DNA of 51,620 nucleotides from a virus (Duplodnaviria; Heunggongvirae; Uroviricota; Caudoviricetes): positions 1-51,620 of the IMG/VR virus record IMGVR_UViG_2541047950_000002; one strand, given 5' to 3'. Shown here piece after piece: positions 908 to 17,650 of the stretch. Position 1 is the first letter of the stretch, and each line of letters starts with the position of its first letter. The notes under the pieces were generated by a model. The model saw only the letters and a list, made by a program, of their open reading frames with translations, did not search any database and was not told where the DNA came from. The translations under genes and the position numbers were made by a program.

Positions 908-926
908 TCATAGCTGGTGCTTTTTG

Positions 927-953
927 AAAACCCGCCTTTAGGCGGGTTTTTTC
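927..953. terminator. bidirectional rho-independent terminator between the rightward cargo genes and the leftward early operon
   Basis: Hairpin AAAACCCGCC-TTTA-GGCGGGTTTT followed by a T-run on the + strand; shorter T-run on the - strand. Confidence 0.6.
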
Positions 954-5664: not shown

Positions 5665-6027
5665 TTAATGACCTGCTGCGCGGAGTTTTCCGTCAGGTTC
5701 ACCGGCAAGAGTCAGTAATTGTCCCTGGTCTTCCTGCAGAATAGTCAGGCGACCACCGCGATTGACATACATCGGAGTTTCGGTGGTGTCTTCTTCGGAA
5801 ATTTTCCCGCGGTTAGTCGGGCGAACATATGAGAGTTTGTGTTTGATTTTCACACGGTTCTCATCAAATGGTTCGATTTCCAGGTTGAGCGAGACCTTAC
5901 CTTTGGTTTTCGTATTCATCACACCGGAAGCGACTTCACTGAGAACAGCGCCGATTTTGGTTTCAAATACGCCGCCGTCCAGCTCCCCGATAAATGCCTG
6001 CACATCAGTACTGCGTTCGCTAGCCAT
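5665..6027 (-). CDS. first gene of the leftward early operon (YfdP-like hypothetical, 121 aa)
   Basis: Internal ATG at 6025-6027 (MASERST) has GAGGAG about 7 nt upstream; the longer track ORF to 6213 has no RBS and runs through a hairpin. Confidence 0.45.
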   Translation of the reverse strand: MASERSTDVQAFIGELDGGVFETKIGAVLSEVASGVMNTKTKGKVSLNLEIEPFDENRVKIKHKLSYVRPTNRGKISEEDTTETPMYVNRGGRLTILQEDQGQLLTLAGEPDGKLRAAGH

Positions 6028-6075
6028 TTTGTTGCTCCTCATCATATCGACCCTGCAAGGTCGGTTGGTTTCTCC

Positions 6076-6174
6076 ACAAAACAGAGAAGAACACCTGCGG
6101 TGGCAGCCGCCCGGATGGATTGGGTTATGAGCCCGTCGTCCGGTGATGCTCTTCTCTGTTTTGTAAAAAGAGCG
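6076..6174 (-). promoter_or_regulatory. boxA-like motif plus long stem-loop in the pL leader (candidate nut/put-like RNA element)
   Basis: On the - strand CGCTCTTTTTACAA (6161-6174) runs into an 18-bp inverted repeat, 6147-6164 pairing with 6076-6093 at 17 of 18 positions, 48 nt upstream of the first early gene. Confidence 0.4.
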
Positions 6175-6704
6175 GTACCAGCCGGAAGCAAGTGTACAAA
6201 CTGGTACTGCCAAAGCAGTGGCTGTTGTGGTGACCGGTGCTGATCTCCGGCTTGCGGTTATTTCAGACTCTCACGGGCGTTTGATTGCCCCGCCGAACAG
6301 CTCTTTTCCGCAATAGCTGCAATGTCTTTCGCGCATCAGCCTGCGCATTCACCACAACGCTGAGAGCATTGCCGGTGTCCGAATCGAACGGACCTTTTCC
6401 CTGCCCAACCCTCCCATCTGAATGGGACTGTCTGGAATTGAACCAGCACTTATGCCTTGCTCGTCAATGCTCTCATCGTTGCGTCCTGGTCTCTTCCCAG
6501 GCGTCAAACCGAATCGCCACGCTGGTTAGGCGTCTTATCAGCATCCTCATTGACTTGCACATTCCGGCTACCTGGTTTGTTTGCCCGAGCAAGGAGTGGA
6601 TTGTCCCCTTTAACGTCCCCAGACCGCTAACGACGCATGTGCCATACGCCGTGTTACAACCAAATTTTGTTAGGACCTTGTTTGTTGGTCTGGAAAGAAA
6701 GATA

Positions 6705-6760
6705 AAATGAAATTGCGCATTATACAAGTGTTTTGTTGCGAGATGCGCAATATGATGGGT
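6705..6760 (-). promoter_or_regulatory. leftward early promoter pL with oL operator repeats
   Basis: Perfect TATAAT on the - strand (6719-6724) flanked by TTGCGCA and TGCGCAA motifs matching those in the cI-cro intergenic region. Confidence 0.5.
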
Positions 6761-6784
6761 GATGAAAAGCCACCTTCTGGTGGC
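6761..6784 (-). terminator. terminator of the repressor transcript
   Basis: Hairpin GCCACC-TTCT-GGTGGC (6769-6784) followed on the - strand by a T-run; lies between the cI stop and pL. Confidence 0.5.
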
Positions 6785-6805
6785 TAATTGATGAGGAGGT
6801 CGGGG

Positions 6806-7498
6806 TTAATTGTGTCGCTTAAGGGTTTGTGACTGACTGATTAAGACCTTCCCAAAGACCATAAACCGGTGTTCATTTTCGCTGGTAATTCCCCATTCAC
6901 GGTAAATCTGGTTATCAGAAATTACCAGTAGTTTGTCAGGTATCATTTGCAGTCGTTTGACATAAATTTTATCATCAAAACCAAACACATAGATACCATC
7001 CCCATCAAACTGATTGATACTGATATCAACGAAGATGAGATCTCCTGGCTCAATGGTTGGACACATACTGTCCCCACGAACGTTGATAACTTTAATGTGA
7101 TTGGCTGGTCGTCCTCCAAACATCGATACAGCATTATCAGTTATGTATTCAATGGCATGAATCACATCAATGACATCACCGCCCTGGATAAGGCCATTTC
7201 CCGCACTGGCACTGACATCCAGCATTTCAATACGGAATACATCCTTCACCTGCGCAACATCCTCACCAGTACTGTTTTTACATACAGTATTACTTTTGAA
7301 GTCTGAGGTAAAGAGATCTGCAATATCAACACCTAAGCTCCTGGCAATATTACTCAGGGCTTGTTCAGTGAATTGTTTCTGCTTACCTGTTTCCAGGCGT
7401 GAGATATTCGCCGCATCCACTCCTATTGCTTCAGCGAGATCGGCGATTTTCATGTTCTTCGCCTGGCGAAGTTGTCTGACTCGATTTCCTATGTTCAT
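6806..7498 (-). CDS. CI-like prophage repressor (XRE HTH plus S24 LexA-like peptidase domain)
   Basis: 230 aa; N-terminal HTH (NIGNRVRQLRQAKNMKIADLAEAIGV); C-terminal S24-type domain (RGDSMCPTIEPGDLIFVD); divergent from the cro-like gene. Confidence 0.85.
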   Translation of the reverse strand: MNIGNRVRQLRQAKNMKIADLAEAIGVDAANISRLETGKQKQFTEQALSNIARSLGVDIADLFTSDFKSNTVCKNSTGEDVAQVKDVFRIEMLDVSASAGNGLIQGGDVIDVIHAIEYITDNAVSMFGGRPANHIKVINVRGDSMCPTIEPGDLIFVDISINQFDGDGIYVFGFDDKIYVKRLQMIPDKLLVISDNQIYREWGITSENEHRFMVFGKVLISQSQTLKRHN

Positions 7499-7856: not shown

Positions 7857-8400
7857 GCATCACTGGAAAGTGGAAAAACAGCCTGAGTGGTACGTGAAAG
7901 CGGTCAGAAAAACTATCGCGGCGTTGCCGGGTGGTTACGCTGAAGCAGCTGAGTGGCTGGATGTAACAGAGAACGCTTTATTCAATCGCCTTCGTGCCGA
8001 TGGCGATCAGATTTTCCCGCTGGGATGGGCAATGATTTTACAGCGCGCGGCTGGCACTCACTACATTGCGGATGCTGTCGCACAGTCTGCTGGTGGGGTG
8101 TTTGTATCGCTTCCTGACATTGAGGAAGTAGAGAACGCCGATATAAACCAGCGCCTGCTGGAAGTCATCGAACAGATCGGGAGTTACTCAAAGCAGATTC
8201 GTTCGGCAATCGAAGATGGGGTAGTGGAGCCACACGAGCAGACAGCAATGAATGATGAGTTGTATCTGTCAATTTCGAAGCTCCAGGAGCATGCGGCACT
8301 GGTCTACAAAATTTTCTGCGCTCCAGAAAAGAGTGACGCCCGCGAGTGTGCAGCTCCGGGCGTCGTGGCGTTTTGTGTCTGTGGAGAAACTAACGCATGA
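7849..8400 (+). CDS. CII-like regulatory protein (CP76-type)
   Basis: 183 aa with GTG start overlapping the cro end; position and recalled family similarity. Confidence 0.45.
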   Translation: MGKHHWKVEKQPEWYVKAVRKTIAALPGGYAEAAEWLDVTENALFNRLRADGDQIFPLGWAMILQRAAGTHYIADAVAQSAGGVFVSLPDIEEVENADINQRLLEVIEQIGSYSKQIRSAIEDGVVEPHEQTAMNDELYLSISKLQEHAALVYKIFCAPEKSDARECAAPGVVAFCVCGETNA

Positions 8401-9560
8401 ACAGTTTAACGGCAAATAACCGTTTGTCGCAACAGCTGGTGGTCAGTGTCGCTGCACACCTGTTGTTACGGCATGAATGCAGATTACCAAATCACCTGGC
8501 TGTAAGTAACCACAGAGAACTTTACCTGACTGTGGGGGGCGAGTTGTGCAGGAACTTAACCGCTGGTTTCGTGACGGAAGAGGACTTTATGTTCATGTTA
8601 TTCGTTGGGAGCCAGAAACACAGCGCGTTATCTATCTTCGCAAAGACTACCCGCATGAGTGCTTTAGTCCTTTGTGGAAATTCAGGCGTGATTTTGTTGA
8701 GTGTGAAGGACCACCAGCATATTGATTCTGCAATTCCGGGACGTTACACTGTACCGGCACCTTATAAAGCGGGTGCCGGGATTGGCGTCCTGAAATTGAT
8801 TACTGAGCATAACCGCGCTCATGCGGTTTTTTCGTGTCATGAGCATTGCTACGCCCAAATTATGGTGGGGCGTACAGGGCCGACTTCGGTCGGGCCGGGT
8901 TCGGTAGTCTCCGGTAACGCCAACCCTGTACGTCTCACCACCTCTGTGATTGGCGTCCCATGTGGTGAGTTTTCTAAAAAACTGACTACCGGGGCTGTCA
9001 CTATGACTACTCTCCCAACCCTCTCTCAACCTGAAATTGCCATCGTTGATGGTCAGGCTGTTACATCTTCTTTGGCTGTTGCTGACTTCTTCTCTAAACG
9101 TCATGACGATGTTCTGAAAAAGATCCGCATTTTGGATTGTTCTCCAGAGTTTTGTGCCCGCAATTTTGCGGAGACATCAATTTTGGTACGCCAGCCCAAC
9201 GGCGGTACTCGCAAACTTCCTTGCTATCAAATCACCCGCGACGGTTTTGCGTTTCTTGCCATGGGCTTCACTGGTAAACGTGCTGCCCGGTTCAAAGAGG
9301 CATACATCAACGCCTTTAACCTGATGGAGAAACAGCTTTCAAAGCCCGCTGTACCGAGCGACGTTGCACATAACGCCAGCGTTCTCTGTTCCTACATTTC
9401 ATCAATTCATCAGGTCTGGCTGCAGCAGCTTTATCCTATGTTGGCAAAAGCCGAATCTCCGCTGGCTGTTAGCTTATATGACTATATTAATGATGCTTCG
9501 GCGCTGGCCTGCCTCATAAATTTGTCGCTGAACCCTTCAGAGGCAAGGGGGCGCAAATGA
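8397..9560 (+). CDS. ORF with C-terminal Rha (pRha) domain; N-terminal 200 aa unassigned (alternative start 9003)
   Basis: ATG at 8397 overlaps the upstream stop (ATGA); residues from MTTLPTLSQ (nt 9003) onward resemble Rha regulatory proteins; a second frame is also open over 8507-8722. Confidence 0.45.
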   Translation: MNSLTANNRLSQQLVVSVAAHLLLRHECRLPNHLAVSNHRELYLTVGGELCRNLTAGFVTEEDFMFMLFVGSQKHSALSIFAKTTRMSALVLCGNSGVILLSVKDHQHIDSAIPGRYTVPAPYKAGAGIGVLKLITEHNRAHAVFSCHEHCYAQIMVGRTGPTSVGPGSVVSGNANPVRLTTSVIGVPCGEFSKKLTTGAVTMTTLPTLSQPEIAIVDGQAVTSSLAVADFFSKRHDDVLKKIRILDCSPEFCARNFAETSILVRQPNGGTRKLPCYQITRDGFAFLAMGFTGKRAARFKEAYINAFNLMEKQLSKPAVPSDVAHNASVLCSYISSIHQVWLQQLYPMLAKAESPLAVSLYDYINDASALACLINLSLNPSEARGRK

Positions 9561-16335: not shown

Positions 16336-16411
16336 GGCCCTTTAGCTCAGTGGTGAGAGCGAGCGACTCATAATCGCCAGGTCGCTGGTTCAAATCCAGC
16401 AAGGGCCACCA
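16336..16411 (+). tRNA. tRNA with anticodon CAT (Met or Ile2-type)
   Basis: Manual cloverleaf: 7-bp acceptor GGCCCTT/AAGGGCC, anticodon loop CTCATAA, T-loop TTCAAAT, encoded 3' CCA. Confidence 0.8.
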
Positions 16412-16420
16412 TATCACATA

Positions 16421-16497
16421 CCGCCATTAGCTCATCGGGATAGAGCGTCAGCCTTCGAAGCTGGTTGCGCGGGGTTCGAGTCCTCGATGGCGGTCCA
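16421..16497 (+). tRNA. tRNA-Arg (anticodon TCG)
   Basis: Acceptor CCGCCAT/ATGGCGG, anticodon loop CTTCGAA, T-loop TTCGAGT, encoded CCA. Confidence 0.7.
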
Positions 16498-16510
16498 TTA
16501 TCGGTATTCA

Positions 16511-16587
16511 GCGTTGTTAGCTCAGCCGGACAGAGCAATTGCCTTCTAAGCAATCGGTCACTGGTTCGAATCCAGTACAACGCGCCA
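16511..16587 (+). tRNA. tRNA-Arg (anticodon TCT, reads AGA)
   Basis: Acceptor GCGTTGT/ACAACGC, anticodon stem ATTGC/GCAAT with loop CTTCTAA, T-loop TTCGAAT, encoded CCA. Confidence 0.8.
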
Positions 16588-17349: not shown

Positions 17350-17596
17350 CCGGGTATCAGTCATGCCCCGAAAATTTTAAATGTCTCACAATTCAGACGG
17401 TTGACAGTTGTCTGTTTTGCGGGGAGTTTGTTAAAAGAAACAGGCATGGTGAATCCCCCTGAGCGGAGGGGCGACTGGTGCATTAGGTGTTATCTTTGAT
17501 ACCCAGGAAAGTAAACGCGCGGGTTTGGTGGCACCGGGCTGAACTCACCGGGAGGCACCCGGCATCATGCGCATGATGATACAGATACGCGGCTTT

Positions 17597-17622
17597 AGCC
17601 CCTCTCCGGAGGGGCTTTTATA
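17597..17622 (+). terminator. rho-independent terminator
   Basis: Perfect hairpin AGCCCCTC-TCCG-GAGGGGCT followed by TTTTATATGAATTTT. Confidence 0.6.
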
Positions 17623-17650
17623 TGAATTTTGTAAGATATGAGTAAACTAA

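What the first reader, a model, noticed from the sequence alone, without database searches (positions are those of the whole stretch)
6030..6710. 680-nt ORF-poor pL leader carrying a boxA-like motif and an 18-bp inverted repeat
Between the leftward promoter (TATAAT at 6719-6724 on the - strand) and the first convincing early gene (ATG 6027) there are about 680 nt with no convincing ORF; the only candidates are peptides of 30 aa or less without RBS. Just upstream of that gene the transcript carries CGCTCTTTTTACAA (like rrn/lambda boxA) running into an 18-bp stem (6076-6093 with 6147-6164, 17 of 18 paired) around a GC-rich 53-nt insert, plus T-loop-like GGTTCAATTCC and GTTCGATTC motifs further 5'. 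Lambda has nutL followed by N at this position and no N-like protein is evident here, so this may be an RNA-based antitermination element or an unrecognised ncRNA in the rexAB-equivalent hotspot.
Basis: partly seen in the sequence, partly recalled or inferred. Interest (0 to 1): 0.62.

Follow-up and report, generated by a model that had tools for sequence, protein, structure and literature searches.

The report
Structured RNA cassette array in pL leader
The 680-base "empty" stretch after the phage's leftward promoter is a chain of at least four conserved folded RNA modules missing from Rfam 15, including tRNA-shaped cassettes and a hairpin that copies the initiator-tRNA anticodon arm just before the first early gene.

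Summary
Window 6651..6042 (minus strand) is non-coding and consists of structured-RNA modules, three of them with compensatory base changes.

- **M1:** a pseudoknotted RNA of about 170 nt.
- **M2:** an invariant clamp helix around a hypervariable insert, here with two T-arm hairpins.
- **M3:** a cloverleaf-shaped cassette closed by GUUGUGG/CCACAAC. This slot holds real tRNAs in other phages.
- **T:** an intrinsic-terminator-like hairpin with a U5 run.
- **M4:** a three-way junction on a 20-25 bp stem. One arm is capped by GGG-CUCAUAA-CCC, identical to the E. coli tRNA-fMet anticodon arm over 14 nt.

The 18-bp repeat is M4's long stem. Rfam 15 matches none of the modules.

M3+T+M4 is the constant leader in about 100 distinct prophage contexts across roughly 20 Enterobacterales genera. 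M1/M2 are optional cargo shared with P1-like and epsilon15-like phages, where they sit next to tRNA genes. The M4 cap also precedes holin genes of four families.

Function is inferred only. The likeliest model is a tRNA-operon-like immediate-early RNA unit ending at T, plus a cis-acting leader for read-through transcripts. Put-like antitermination remains possible but unproven.

The parts
6765..6784 (-). Hairpin GCCACCAGAAGGUGGC plus UUUU, directly after the cI stop; the likely cI terminator
   Evidence: Read from the sequence. Too few T for the simple scanner.
6719..6726 (-). Extended -10 TGTATAAT of the putative pL, flanked by TTGCGCA-type words at 6743-6750 and 6713-6720
   Evidence: Relatives with other immunity regions become homologous only from about 6671 onward. 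The promoter assignment is inferred, not shown.
6485..6651 (-). M1, a pseudoknotted structured RNA of about 170 nt. P1 is 6651-6644/6638-6631 with loop GGCAC. Candidate PK1 is 6642-6639 with 6560-6557. P2 is 6626-6624/6567-6565 plus 6622-6619/6575-6572. P4 is 6533-6530/6522-6519. PK2 is 6527-6524 with 6510-6507. P5 is 6501-6497/6489-6485 with loop GAAGAGA.
   Evidence: Alignment A3 of 19 non-redundant sequences. Covariation: 97.8% paired, 12 compensatory pairs. In P1 and D6 it starts right after tRNA-Ile.
6352..6481 (-). M2, a clamp helix CAACG-AU-GAGAGCAUU / AAUGCUCUC-AG-CGUUG (6481-6466 with 6370-6355). It encloses a variable insert, here T-arm-like hairpin 1 (6446-6432), a variable hairpin (6428-6411) and T-arm-like hairpin 2 (6393-6377).
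   Evidence: At least 10 unrelated insert types of 37-100 nt sit between identical clamps. A5 gives 35 pairs, 9 compensatory. In 31 of 131 copies tRNA-Arg(UCU) follows at 0 nt.
6224..6358 (-). M3, a cloverleaf-shaped cassette closed by GUUGUGGU (6358-6351) and ACCACAAC (6231-6224). It has a D-position hairpin GCGCA-GGCUGA-UGCGC and a T-position hairpin CCGG..CCGG that abuts the 3' strand. It contains a 25-codon ORF (6348..6271) that is not conserved.
   Evidence: In 85 of 104 M4-selected contexts a cassette with this closure is present, and 40 of 41 distinct cassettes close in the MFE fold. The same slot holds a gene above Rfam's tRNA threshold in L060 and tRNA-Arg in epsilon15-like phages. 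Window-type copies are 96-100% identical, so covariation is not testable for this type.
6165..6211 (-). T, an intrinsic-terminator-like hairpin GGCAGUACCAG[18-nt loop]CUGGUACCGC (6211-6172) followed by a U5 run (6169-6165)
   Evidence: Of 87 distinct contexts, 84 have a U5-6 run. The hairpin ends 0-2 nt before it in 79 of 84. Median hairpin dG is -19.9 kcal/mol. Arms covary by eye. Termination itself is not shown.
6161..6174 (-).
6071..6169 (-). M4, a three-way junction. The long stem S1 is 6164-6145 with 6095-6076, extended by U-run 6169-6165 with GGAGA 6075-6071. Arm S2 is 6143-6139/6115-6111. The variable arm S3 is 6110-6107/6100-6097.
   Evidence: A4 has 15 sequences. Covariation gives 10 compensatory pairs. 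U.G pairs (88-165 in 11 of 15) fix the strand. Fold z is -7.5. Not coding.
6117..6137 (-). The cap GAC-GGG-CUCAUAA-CCC-AAUCC. CGGGCUCAUAACCC is identical over 14 nt to the anticodon arm of E. coli initiator tRNA-fMet.
   Evidence: verifies the tRNA-fMet sequence (100% in 5426 of 5426 genomes). The cap recurs on unrelated paired stems in other 3-way junctions.
6048..6063 (-). H3, hairpin CGACC-UUGCAG-GGUCG between M4 and the RBS. Relatives have GGCGG-UGGCAG-CCGCC.
   Evidence: Compensatory by eye, but the alignment was out of register and it was not counted.
6025..6040 (-). RBS GAGGAG and ATG of yfdP, the first early-left gene

Best explanation
The stretch is a non-coding, multi-module structured RNA, most likely transcribed from the repressor-controlled leftward promoter. 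Two layers can be separated.

**1. The constant unit of this group of N-less lambdoid phages.** It consists of a tRNA-shaped cassette (M3), an intrinsic-terminator-like hairpin (T), and a very stable three-way junction (M4). One arm of M4 copies the initiator-tRNA anticodon arm. A small hairpin and the ribosome-binding site of whatever gene opens the early-left operon follow.

I read M3+T as a tRNA-gene-like unit with its own terminator. On this reading the immediate-early product of pL is stable RNA, and most transcripts stop at T. M4 is then a cis-acting leader on the transcripts that read through. Its 20-25 bp stem is a likely RNase III processing and 5'-protection site. It would separate the RNA cassettes from the mRNA and set the stability and translation of the first cistron. 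The invariant CAU hairpin would be a recognition element for something that normally reads the initiator tRNA.

**2. Optional cargo in the same slot.** M1 (pseudoknotted) and M2 (clamp with a hypervariable tRNA-like insert) also travel with real tRNA genes in P1-like and epsilon15-like phages. They are probably processed, tRNA-operon-type stable RNAs of unknown function.

**Shown:** the modules, their folds, the transcribed strand, the non-coding status, the distribution and the contexts.

**Inferred:** the promoter, termination at T, processing, and every functional role.
For: - **Structure and strand.** Covariation supports M1, M2 and M4. G.U pairs fit only the minus strand.
- **Non-coding.** No frame is open across relatives and there is no Pfam match. 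The closest relative annotates nothing in the gap.
- **Constant unit.** In loci selected only on the M4 cap there are 104-105 distinct canonical contexts. Of these, 93 have T, 85 have an M3-type cassette, and only about 24% have M1/M2.
- **T looks like a terminator.** A U5-6 run is present in 84 of 87 contexts. The hairpin abuts it in 79 of 84. Median dG is -19.9 kcal/mol.
- **tRNA link.** The M3 slot holds tRNA-Arg(UCU) in 31 of 131 copies and a gene above Rfam's tRNA cutoff in L060. All M3 types fold as cloverleaves. M1 starts at the 3' end of tRNA-Ile in P1 and D6.
- **M4 precedes whichever gene opens the operon.** It sits before unrelated first genes, YfdP or RdgC. The capped junction also precedes holins of four Pfam families.
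- **Cap identity.** It matches tRNA-fMet over 14 nt.
- **Mosaic breakpoints** fall at module edges.
Against: - No expression, 5'/3'-end or processing data were available.
- The promoter and operator assignment rests on position and a few shared words. TTGCGCAA-like words are not enriched window-wide.
- T has an 18-nt loop here and was missed by the simple terminator scan.
- A plain stabiliser or processing role does not explain why the 21-nt cap is invariant.
- Cap variants with C33 or U37/C37 depart from strict tRNA rules.
- M3 of the window type has no diverged relatives, so its fold is unsupported by covariation.
- In a subfamily the T loop carries AGGAGG plus AUG/GUG. That points to a different, translation-coupled logic which the window lacks.
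Confidence: 0.55

Rival explanations
1. M4, or M1, is a put-like processive antiterminator RNA. The nascent RNA binds the transcribing polymerase and makes it resistant to downstream terminators, replacing the missing N protein.
For: - No N gene is present.
- The same speculation has been published for this phage group (PMC12315714).
- The element sits at the start of the early-left operon, as putL does (PMC9378689).
- In a Mixta prophage M4 begins about 35 nt after a promoter.
- The capped junction also sits at the head of late (holin) operons. Those are long operons that classically need antitermination.
Against: - There is no similarity to putL or putR, and the size and fold differ.
- M4 lies downstream of T, so it cannot act on T.
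- There is no second copy in the rightward operon.
- M1/M2 are missing from about 76% of leaders that still have T.
- Few terminator-like sites exist inside the early-left operon.
- M1 also occurs far from promoters, for example after tRNA-Ile in P1.
Confidence: 0.2
2. The tRNA-like parts are decoys or sponges for host factors that target tRNAs. These parts are the M4 cap, the M2 T-arm insert and the M3 cassettes. Candidate targets include VapC-type PIN toxins that cut the tRNA-fMet anticodon loop, anticodon nucleases and tRNA-modifying enzymes. Made at the start of early and late transcription, they would protect translation during infection.
For: - The cap matches the tRNA-fMet anticodon arm, and VapC toxins of Salmonella and Shigella cleave tRNA-fMet (PMC7180214).
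- Many unrelated inserts sit between invariant clamps, which looks like arms-race diversification.
- The T-arm hairpins have canonical UUCGAUU/UUCAAUU loops.
- The elements are placed in the first-transcribed part of early and late operons.
Against: - A single cis copy per transcript is a weak sponge.
- The variable hairpins lack anticodon-loop features.
- The cap sits on a 3-bp stem only, not a full 5-bp anticodon stem.
- No tRNA-targeting system is known to be linked to these phages.
Confidence: 0.12
3. This is boxA/Nus-factor (nut-like or rrn-like) antitermination. CGCUCUUUUUACAA would recruit NusB/NusE to the elongation complex.
For: In the window the sequence resembles the boxA consensus. 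This rests on my own knowledge of the consensus CGCUCUUUAACAA.
Against: - Only 32 of 98 distinct relatives keep GCUCUU. The rest read GUCCUU or GCCCUU, because these bases are the covarying 3' arm of hairpin T.
- No boxB-like hairpin and no N gene are present.
- The motif would be buried in T or in the extended S1 helix.
Confidence: 0.04
4. The region is decayed tRNA genes and recombination scars with no present function, or DNA-level module-boundary sequences.
For: - The mosaic breakpoints lie at module edges.
- The region is tRNA-related.
- The short junction motif (6359..6329) is 100% identical in very different phages.
Against: - Compensatory changes maintain helices across genera.
- G.U pairs are strand-specific.
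- Invariant single-stranded blocks are present.
- The family is found in about 20 genera and at least 120 metagenome contigs.
Confidence: 0.05
5. The region encodes small proteins, such as the 141-aa plus-strand ORF annotated in mEp460, the 25-aa CxxC peptide in M3, or the 49-aa ORF across M4.
For: - mEp460 and other records annotate hypothetical CDSs here.
- Most M4 lengths keep the same value mod 3, and one frame is open in 9-11 of 15 sequences.
- A subfamily has AGGAGG plus a start codon in the T loop.
Against: - No frame is open in all members, and two members have stops in all three frames.
- M1 lengths vary by non-multiples of 3, and at most 7 of 19 sequences are open in any frame.
- There are no Pfam matches.
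- The M3 ORF stops after 6 codons in a relative that keeps the hairpin.
- RefSeq annotates nothing here in the nearest relatives.
Confidence: 0.04

Closest known systems
GOLLD and ROOL RNAs (large ornate phage/prophage RNAs)
   Same: They are encoded in phages and prophages, often next to tRNA islands. GOLLD has a conserved part and a variable linker that sometimes holds tRNAs. They are pseudoknotted and their function is unknown (PMC12286853). M1-M2-M3 share the phage setting, tRNA adjacency, pseudoknots and a variable slot that can hold a tRNA.
   Different: There is no Rfam match even at E<=10. The modules are much smaller (170 + 130 + 135 nt), occur in Enterobacterales, and are separable and recombine independently. 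No evidence of multimer cages exists.
HK022 put RNAs (cis-acting antiterminator RNA)
   Same: Both are non-coding RNA at the start of the early-left operon of a lambdoid phage that lacks N.
   Different: Put is about 70 nt with two stem-loops. It has no sequence similarity and comes as two copies (putL and putR), whereas the window has one. M4 follows a terminator-like hairpin, and its cap recurs before holin genes.
Lambda nutL / N-leader with its RNase III site
   Same: This rests on my own knowledge. Both are a long leader between pL and the first gene, with a boxA-like word followed by a long duplex upstream of the RBS. In lambda the duplex is cut by RNase III and modulates N translation.
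   Different: There is no N and no boxB. BoxA is not conserved. The duplex is the base of a three-way junction with a tRNA-fMet-like cap.
tRNA genes and tRNA-like RNAs (tmRNA, bacterial Y RNA YrlA, viral tRNA-like structures)
   Same: Shared features are T-arm hairpins with UUCGAUU/UUCAAUU loops, an acceptor-like closing stem stacked on a T-position hairpin, an anticodon-arm copy, and a slot interchangeable with real tRNAs.
   Different: ARAGORN and the Rfam tRNA, tmRNA and YrlA models do not match the window copies. There is no CCA end; the 3' end reads ACCACAAC. M2 has two T-arms and no acceptor stem.
Dicistrovirus intergenic IRES (anticodon-arm mimicry in a viral leader)
   Same: A viral untranslated RNA carries a mimic of a tRNA anticodon stem-loop just upstream of a coding region (PMC10516663, listed; otherwise my own knowledge).
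   Different: That system is eukaryotic and mimics a codon-anticodon duplex through a pseudoknot. Here no pairing partner for CAU is established and an ordinary Shine-Dalgarno site is present.

Membership tests
HK022 put antiterminator RNA | Sequence and fold similarity to putL/putR (about 70 nt, two stem-loops) | tested here: not met
   putL and putR were read from HK022. BLAST of the leader against the HK022 immunity region, and of put against the whole window, gave only chance-level hits with E>=0.17.
HK022 put antiterminator RNA | Copies downstream of both early promoters | tested here: not met
   No second copy of any module exists in the window.
HK022 put antiterminator RNA | Suppresses downstream terminators in cis, depending on the RNA polymerase beta' zinc-binding domain | not testable with these tools
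   Needs read-through reporters and rpoC mutants.
Lambda-type nut site / rrn boxA antitermination | Conserved boxA (GCUCUU core) | tested here: not met
   The core is kept in 32 of 98 distinct relatives and replaced by GUCCUU, GCCCUU or GCACUU in the others. These bases belong to hairpin T.
Lambda-type nut site / rrn boxA antitermination | boxB hairpin and an N protein | tested here: not met
   The boxA-like word runs straight into the 20-25 bp stem S1. No N is annotated in the near-identical phage.
tRNA | Recognised by ARAGORN or the Rfam tRNA model | tested here: not met
   None is found in 6030-6710 at default settings. Only spurious calls appear at relaxed thresholds. However, the homologous slot holds tRNA-Arg and a 126-nt gene scoring 40 bits against a cutoff of 29.
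GOLLD / ROOL / other Rfam large RNAs, YrlA, tmRNA, known ribozymes | Match to the family covariance model | tested here: not met
   cmscan at gathering thresholds on the whole window and on 10 relatives found nothing here. With E<=10 on 5900-6900 there were only three chance hits.
Intrinsic (Rho-independent) terminator (element T) | GC-rich hairpin immediately followed by a U-run | tested here: met
   Of 87 distinct contexts, 84 have a U5-6 run. The hairpin ends 0-2 nt before it in 79 of 84. Median dG is -19.9 kcal/mol. The window hairpin is -15 kcal/mol with an 18-nt loop.
Intrinsic (Rho-independent) terminator (element T) | Actually releases RNA polymerase | not testable with these tools
   Needs in vitro transcription or Term-seq.
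Initiator tRNA anticodon-arm mimic (M4 cap) | Three consecutive G-C pairs closing a 7-nt loop CUCAUAA | tested here: met
   The 14 nt are identical to E. coli tRNA-fMet. GGG/CCC and CAU are invariant in 15 BLAST-selected relatives, while positions 32, 33 and 37 vary in a minority.
Initiator tRNA anticodon-arm mimic (M4 cap) | Bound or processed by a factor that reads tRNA-fMet (30S P site/IF3, MetRS, VapC) | not testable with these tools
   Needs binding, toeprint and cleavage assays.

The most novel reading that the evidence does not exclude
The invariant M4 cap is a working mimic of the initiator-tRNA anticodon arm. It would engage the 30S P site or initiation factors, or another tRNA-fMet reader, to control initiation on the first cistron of long phage operons, both early-left and late/holin. 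That would be a natural bacterial-virus counterpart of IRES-type tRNA mimicry. In parallel, the clamp-flanked M2/M3 slots would be an RNA-level hypervariable locus of tRNA-like decoys, and the immediate-early product of these N-less lambdoid phages would be RNA rather than a protein.
Probability: 0.1. Interest if true: 0.92.

Novelty: new variant of a known kind. Interest (0 to 1): 0.78.

Why it matters
These modules sit in some of the best-studied phages, including P1, Stx-converting phages, SfV, epsilon15-like phages and the CPS-53 relatives of E. coli. Yet Rfam 15 matches none of them, and the records checked annotate the region as empty or as hypothetical ORFs. I could not exclude that they are among the unnamed candidates of large phage RNA catalogues.

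They give concrete, testable candidates for an open question. It is not known how lambdoid phages without N control their early-left operon (raised in PMC12315714).

They also add three things to phage RNA biology:
- An Enterobacterales counterpart to the tRNA-associated phage RNAs GOLLD and ROOL, in a genetically tractable host.
- A portable 21-nt initiator-tRNA-like cap found ahead of early genes and ahead of four holin families.
- A cassette-like slot where real tRNAs, tRNA-like RNAs and unrelated folds replace each other between invariant clamps.

Practically, several 'hypothetical protein' annotations in these gaps are probably wrong. Examples are mEp460 gp36/gp37 and possibly P1 plp/upl.

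Tried and rejected
- **Rfam.** Gathering thresholds on the whole window and on 10 relatives, and E<=10 on 5900-6900, found nothing in the region.
- **ARAGORN.** Default settings found nothing. Thresholds relaxed to 60-80% gave only implausible intron-containing or permuted-tmRNA calls.
- **Put homology.** Rejected. A 9-nt identity (CAUGCGUCG) between M1 and putL is not significant.
- **Protein-coding readings.** Rejected for the 141-aa plus-strand ORF, the 84-aa and 49-aa minus-strand ORFs, the 25-aa CxxC peptide and the in-frame upstream extension of yfdP.
- **Resemblances considered from memory and dropped.**
  - Hammerhead (GAUGAG) and C/D-box-like words in the clamp: no Rfam support and the core is incomplete.
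  - Integron attC (CAAC/GTTG): poor fit, no integrase, and G.U pairs point to RNA.
  - ERIC/REP repeats: no similarity.
  - Y RNA (YrlA): no model match.
  - Retron msr/msd: no reverse transcriptase.
- **Literature.** String searches for the invariant sequences found nothing relevant. Prophage Pas sRNAs are late-region sRNAs related to STnc100, not these modules. The supplement of the 10,000-candidate phage RNA catalogue is not held, so I could not check whether unnamed candidates overlap.
- **Alternative pairings.** I looked for a pairing that would make T a riboswitch-like attenuator, using the linker upstream of T against the S1 5' arm. No consistent covariation appeared. I also looked for covariation between the cap loop and the start-codon context. 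None was found.
Full report
**Setting.** The window is a lambdoid, Stx-type prophage of E. coli.
- On the minus strand an S24-type cI repressor (7498..6806) is followed by a hairpin with a U-run (6784..6765).
- Next comes an extended -10 TGTATAAT (6726..6719), flanked by TTGCGCA-type words that also occur between cI and cro.
- The next annotated gene is yfdP (ATG 6027), followed by yfdQ and yfdR.
- The almost identical phages Stx2a_WGPS2/1447 and 1720a-02 annotate nothing in the gap. They have no N gene, although a Q-like gene is present.
- Relatives with other immunity regions become homologous only from about 6671. This fits a promoter/operator that belongs to the immunity module and a shared transcribed leader.
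- The promoter assignment is an inference.

**Checking the observation.**
- The inverted repeat is longer than described. It is 20 bp, or 25 bp with the flanking U-run/GGAGA pairing.
- Mechanical ORFs longer than 30 aa do exist (84, 52 and 49 aa on the minus strand; 141 aa on the plus strand).
- These ORFs have no Pfam match. No frame is kept open across relatives on either strand, and homologues differ in length by non-multiples of three.
- The leader folds far better than shuffled controls, with z = -4.25 overall, -7.5 for the M4 part and -3.7 for M2.

**A mosaic of modules.** BLAST against phage, plasmid and E. coli collections shows that relatives share different sub-segments, with sharp breakpoints near 6671, 6358, 6240, 6212 and 6046.
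- The sub-segments turn up in ORF-free gaps of unrelated temperate phages, on the same strand as neighbouring tRNA genes.
- In P1, D6 and P1-like plasmids the first segment starts immediately after tRNA-Ile and precedes ban.
- In epsilon15-like phages (phiV10, SPC32H, Tyrion) the first two segments end exactly at the first base of tRNA-Arg(UCU).
- A third segment lies after tRNA-Thr in P1-like plasmids and also occurs in the Shuimuvirus phage IME207.

**M1 (6651..6485).** A 19-sequence non-redundant alignment (A3) shows long invariant blocks: GGCAC, GGAAUGUGCAAG, GGCGAUUCGGUGUGAC and GAAGAGA. Variable hairpins lie between them.
- A seven-helix model has 32 pairs that are 97.8% paired, against 26-39% when the partners are slid.
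- Twelve pairs show compensatory change, and 0 of 500 shuffles reach the observed score.
- One pseudoknot is supported by an A-U to C-G switch in four sequences. It joins the loop of P4 (AACC/CACC) to GGUU/GGUG downstream.
- A second pseudoknot (GCAC with GUGC) is invariant and therefore untestable.
- G.U pairs fix the transcribed strand as the window's minus strand.

**M2 (6481..6352).** A scan of viral contigs for the 5' clamp word returned at least 120 loci.
- In these, CAACG-AU-GAGAGCAUU and AGUGCUCUC-AG-CGUUG enclose at least ten unrelated inserts of 37-100 nt.
- The 5' word was the search key, but the 3' clamp was not, and it is nearly invariant.
- The window's insert type has two hairpins with canonical T-loop sequences and a freely covarying third hairpin. 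The 11-sequence alignment gives 35 pairs, 9 of them compensatory.
- Another insert type (L077) resembles a whole tRNA.
- In 31 of 131 copies tRNA-Arg(UCU) follows at zero distance, and its G1-G4 are the GUGG of the clamp's 3' flank.

**M3 (6358..6224).** Whatever follows the clamp begins GUUGUGG(U) and ends (A)CCACAAC, forming an 8-9 bp closing stem.
- At least six unrelated contents share a cloverleaf-like layout. Each has a hairpin in the D position and a hairpin in the T position that abuts the 3' strand.
- In four loci the slot holds a 126-nt tRNA-like gene that passes Rfam's tRNA threshold (40 bits against a cutoff of 29).
- The window's version is 96-100% identical wherever found, so its internal fold cannot be tested by covariation.
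- Its 25-codon ORF is cut to 6 codons in a relative that keeps the hairpin.
- CACAAC also precedes M2. The shared GUUGUG can therefore pair upstream, closing M2, or downstream, closing M3. I could not test this possible switch.

**T and M4 (6211..6042).**
- Across 87 distinct related contexts, 84 have a U5-6 run, and the hairpin ends 0-2 nt before it in 79. Median hairpin energy is -19.9 kcal/mol.
- The 'boxA' bases change with the stem: CCGCUC in 32, CCGUCC in 21 and CCGCCC in 20.
- Directly after T comes a three-way junction (A4). It has 32 pairs that are 92.7% paired, against 35-50% when slid, with 10 compensatory pairs and frequent U.G pairs.
- Its base is the 20-25 bp stem S1. One arm is variable.
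- The other arm ends in the invariant 21-nt cap GAC-GGG-CUCAUAA-CCC-AAUCC.
- Fourteen nucleotides of the cap (CGGGCUCAUAACCC) are identical to the anticodon arm of E. coli initiator tRNA. I verified that sequence at 100% identity in all 5426 complete genomes.
- In relatives found by BLAST rather than by the cap, GGG/CCC and CAU never vary, while loop positions 32, 33 and 37 vary in a minority.
- A conserved GGAGA, a small hairpin with a GCAG loop and the RBS follow.
- The first gene can be YfdP, RdgC or others.
- No reading frame is open in all members.

**What is constant and what is cargo.** Scans for the cap found it in about 24 Enterobacterales species genomes. About 5 further hits are consistent with chance (about 6 expected). 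At least 120 metagenome contigs also carry it.
- These loci are unbiased with respect to the upstream sequence. Among 104-105 distinct canonical contexts, 93 have T and 85 have an M3-type cassette just upstream of T.
- 40 of the 41 distinct cassettes close in the MFE fold.
- Only about 24% have M1 and/or M2, and about 12% have another 5' module, M0.
- In SfV the same slot carries protein-coding morons instead.
- So M3+T+M4 is the constant leader, and M1/M2 are optional RNA cargo in the slot downstream of cI.

**The cap is portable.** The same 21 nt sit on unrelated but base-paired stems, inside other three-way junctions, in at least six further contexts.
- Several lie just upstream of holin genes of four different Pfam families: Phage_holin_8, 2_1, 3_3 and 2_3.
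- One type follows a tRNA by about 6 nt, and one follows a strong terminator.
- One instance is in an Acidobacteriaceae MAG, with a perfect 8-bp flanking stem.
- The capped junction therefore marks the start of long phage operons, both early-left and late.

**Interpretation.** The shown facts are the folds, the strand, the non-coding nature, the modularity, the tRNA association and the contexts. From these I infer three things.
- M3+T is organised like a tRNA gene with its terminator. The immediate-early product of pL would then be RNA, and T would limit entry into the early-left genes.
- M4 is a cis-acting leader on read-through transcripts. Its long duplex is the kind of substrate RNase III cuts in the lambda N leader and T7 early RNAs (own knowledge). 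Cleavage would free the mRNA from the cassette array and leave a structured 5' end.
- The invariant CAU hairpin implies recognition by something that reads the initiator tRNA. I cannot tell whether that is the 30S P site/IF3, MetRS, or a tRNA-fMet-cleaving toxin such as VapC (PMC7180214).

M1 and M2 look like stable, processed RNAs of tRNA operons. Their nearest analogues are GOLLD and ROOL, phage RNAs near tRNA islands with tRNAs sometimes inside a variable linker (PMC12286853). They do not match those models.

**The antitermination idea.** The absence of N makes RNA-based antitermination attractive, and others have speculated the same for this group (PMC12315714). Four points count against a simple put-like model.
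- There is no similarity to put.
- There is no rightward copy.
- M4 lies after T.
- The upstream modules are not universal.

It remains a live minority hypothesis for M4 acting on terminators further downstream. The boxA/Nus reading is essentially refuted by the lack of conservation.

**Novelty.** Rfam 15 has no family for any module. String searches of the literature found nothing. Large catalogues of unnamed candidate phage RNAs exist (PMC10690425), but I could not check for overlap.

I rate the modules as new families within known general kinds, namely phage structured ncRNAs next to tRNAs and cis-acting operon leaders. The initiator-tRNA-like cap and the clamp-flanked interchangeable cassette slots have no described bacterial counterpart that I could find.

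Noticed in passing
window 8757-8833 and 8858-8945 (+): Rfam matches to isrK (59 bits) and C4 antisense RNA (82 bits) lie inside a mechanical 387-aa ORF (8397..9560), downstream of the cII-like gene. This suggests a P1/P22-type antirepressor immunity region whose 5' part is RNA, not protein.
   Followed up: no
window 16336-16587 and 17415-17627 (+): A tRNA trio, Met(CAT)-Arg(TCG)-Arg(TCT), is followed by STnc100 (139 bits). This is the late-leader RNA region typical of Stx phages. A recent preprint relates STnc100 to PasD sRNAs.
   Followed up: partly
L005 (phage P1 NC_005856) about 1992-2724; L002/L003 2378-3083 and 4001-4706: The P1 trnT-tciA gap is annotated with plp and upl on the opposite strand. 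It contains two copies of the clamp-3'/M3-start motif in P1 itself (L005), and in P1-like plasmids two such copies plus a complete window-type M3. The ORF annotations there may be spurious, and the ban operon may carry several of these RNAs.
   Followed up: partly
L151, L169, L183, L162, L174, L103 (14533-14780), L224, L239, L257, L150: The 21-nt initiator-tRNA-like cap sits on unrelated stems in three-way junctions just upstream of holin genes of four Pfam families. It also occurs once in an Acidobacteriaceae MAG before a small unknown ORF.
   Followed up: partly
L021, L034, L094, L124, L137, L140, L144, L145, L148, L154, L160 (loop of hairpin T): In one subfamily the loop of the terminator-like hairpin carries AGGAGG or GGGGGA plus AUG/GUG. 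The resulting reading frame runs through the 3' arm and U-run, which could give pyrBI-style translation-coupled attenuation. The window's T loop lacks this.
   Followed up: no
window 6359-6329 (-); hits H118-H120: The 31-nt junction between the M2 3' clamp and the M3 5' end is 100% identical in roughly 160-kb Klebsiella phages (K751, cp21, KP6). It is about 90% identical in many Klebsiella, Erwinia, Salmonella and Cronobacter phages. The clamp/cassette system is therefore not confined to temperate lambdoid phages.
   Followed up: no
L060 1800-1925; also L088, L091, L126: A 126-nt tRNA-like gene (Rfam tRNA 40 bits) has a roughly 50-nt insertion in the variable region and an odd anticodon loop (UUAUGUG). 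It sits between two clamp elements, giving a tandem clamp-tRNA-clamp array.
   Followed up: no
L006, L034, L094, L082, L134 (about 1585-1620): Another recurring 5' module, M0, reads CCACCGAGCCUGAUGUGGUGAAAAGACAGGCAC. It lies at or near the start of the leftward transcript in phages with other immunity regions.
   Followed up: no
window 926-951: A strong bidirectional terminator-like hairpin, GAAAACCCGCC-TTTA-GGCGGGTTTT, sits near the distal end of the early-left operon, in a position like lambda sib/tI. A boxA-like word lies at 873 on the minus strand.
   Followed up: no
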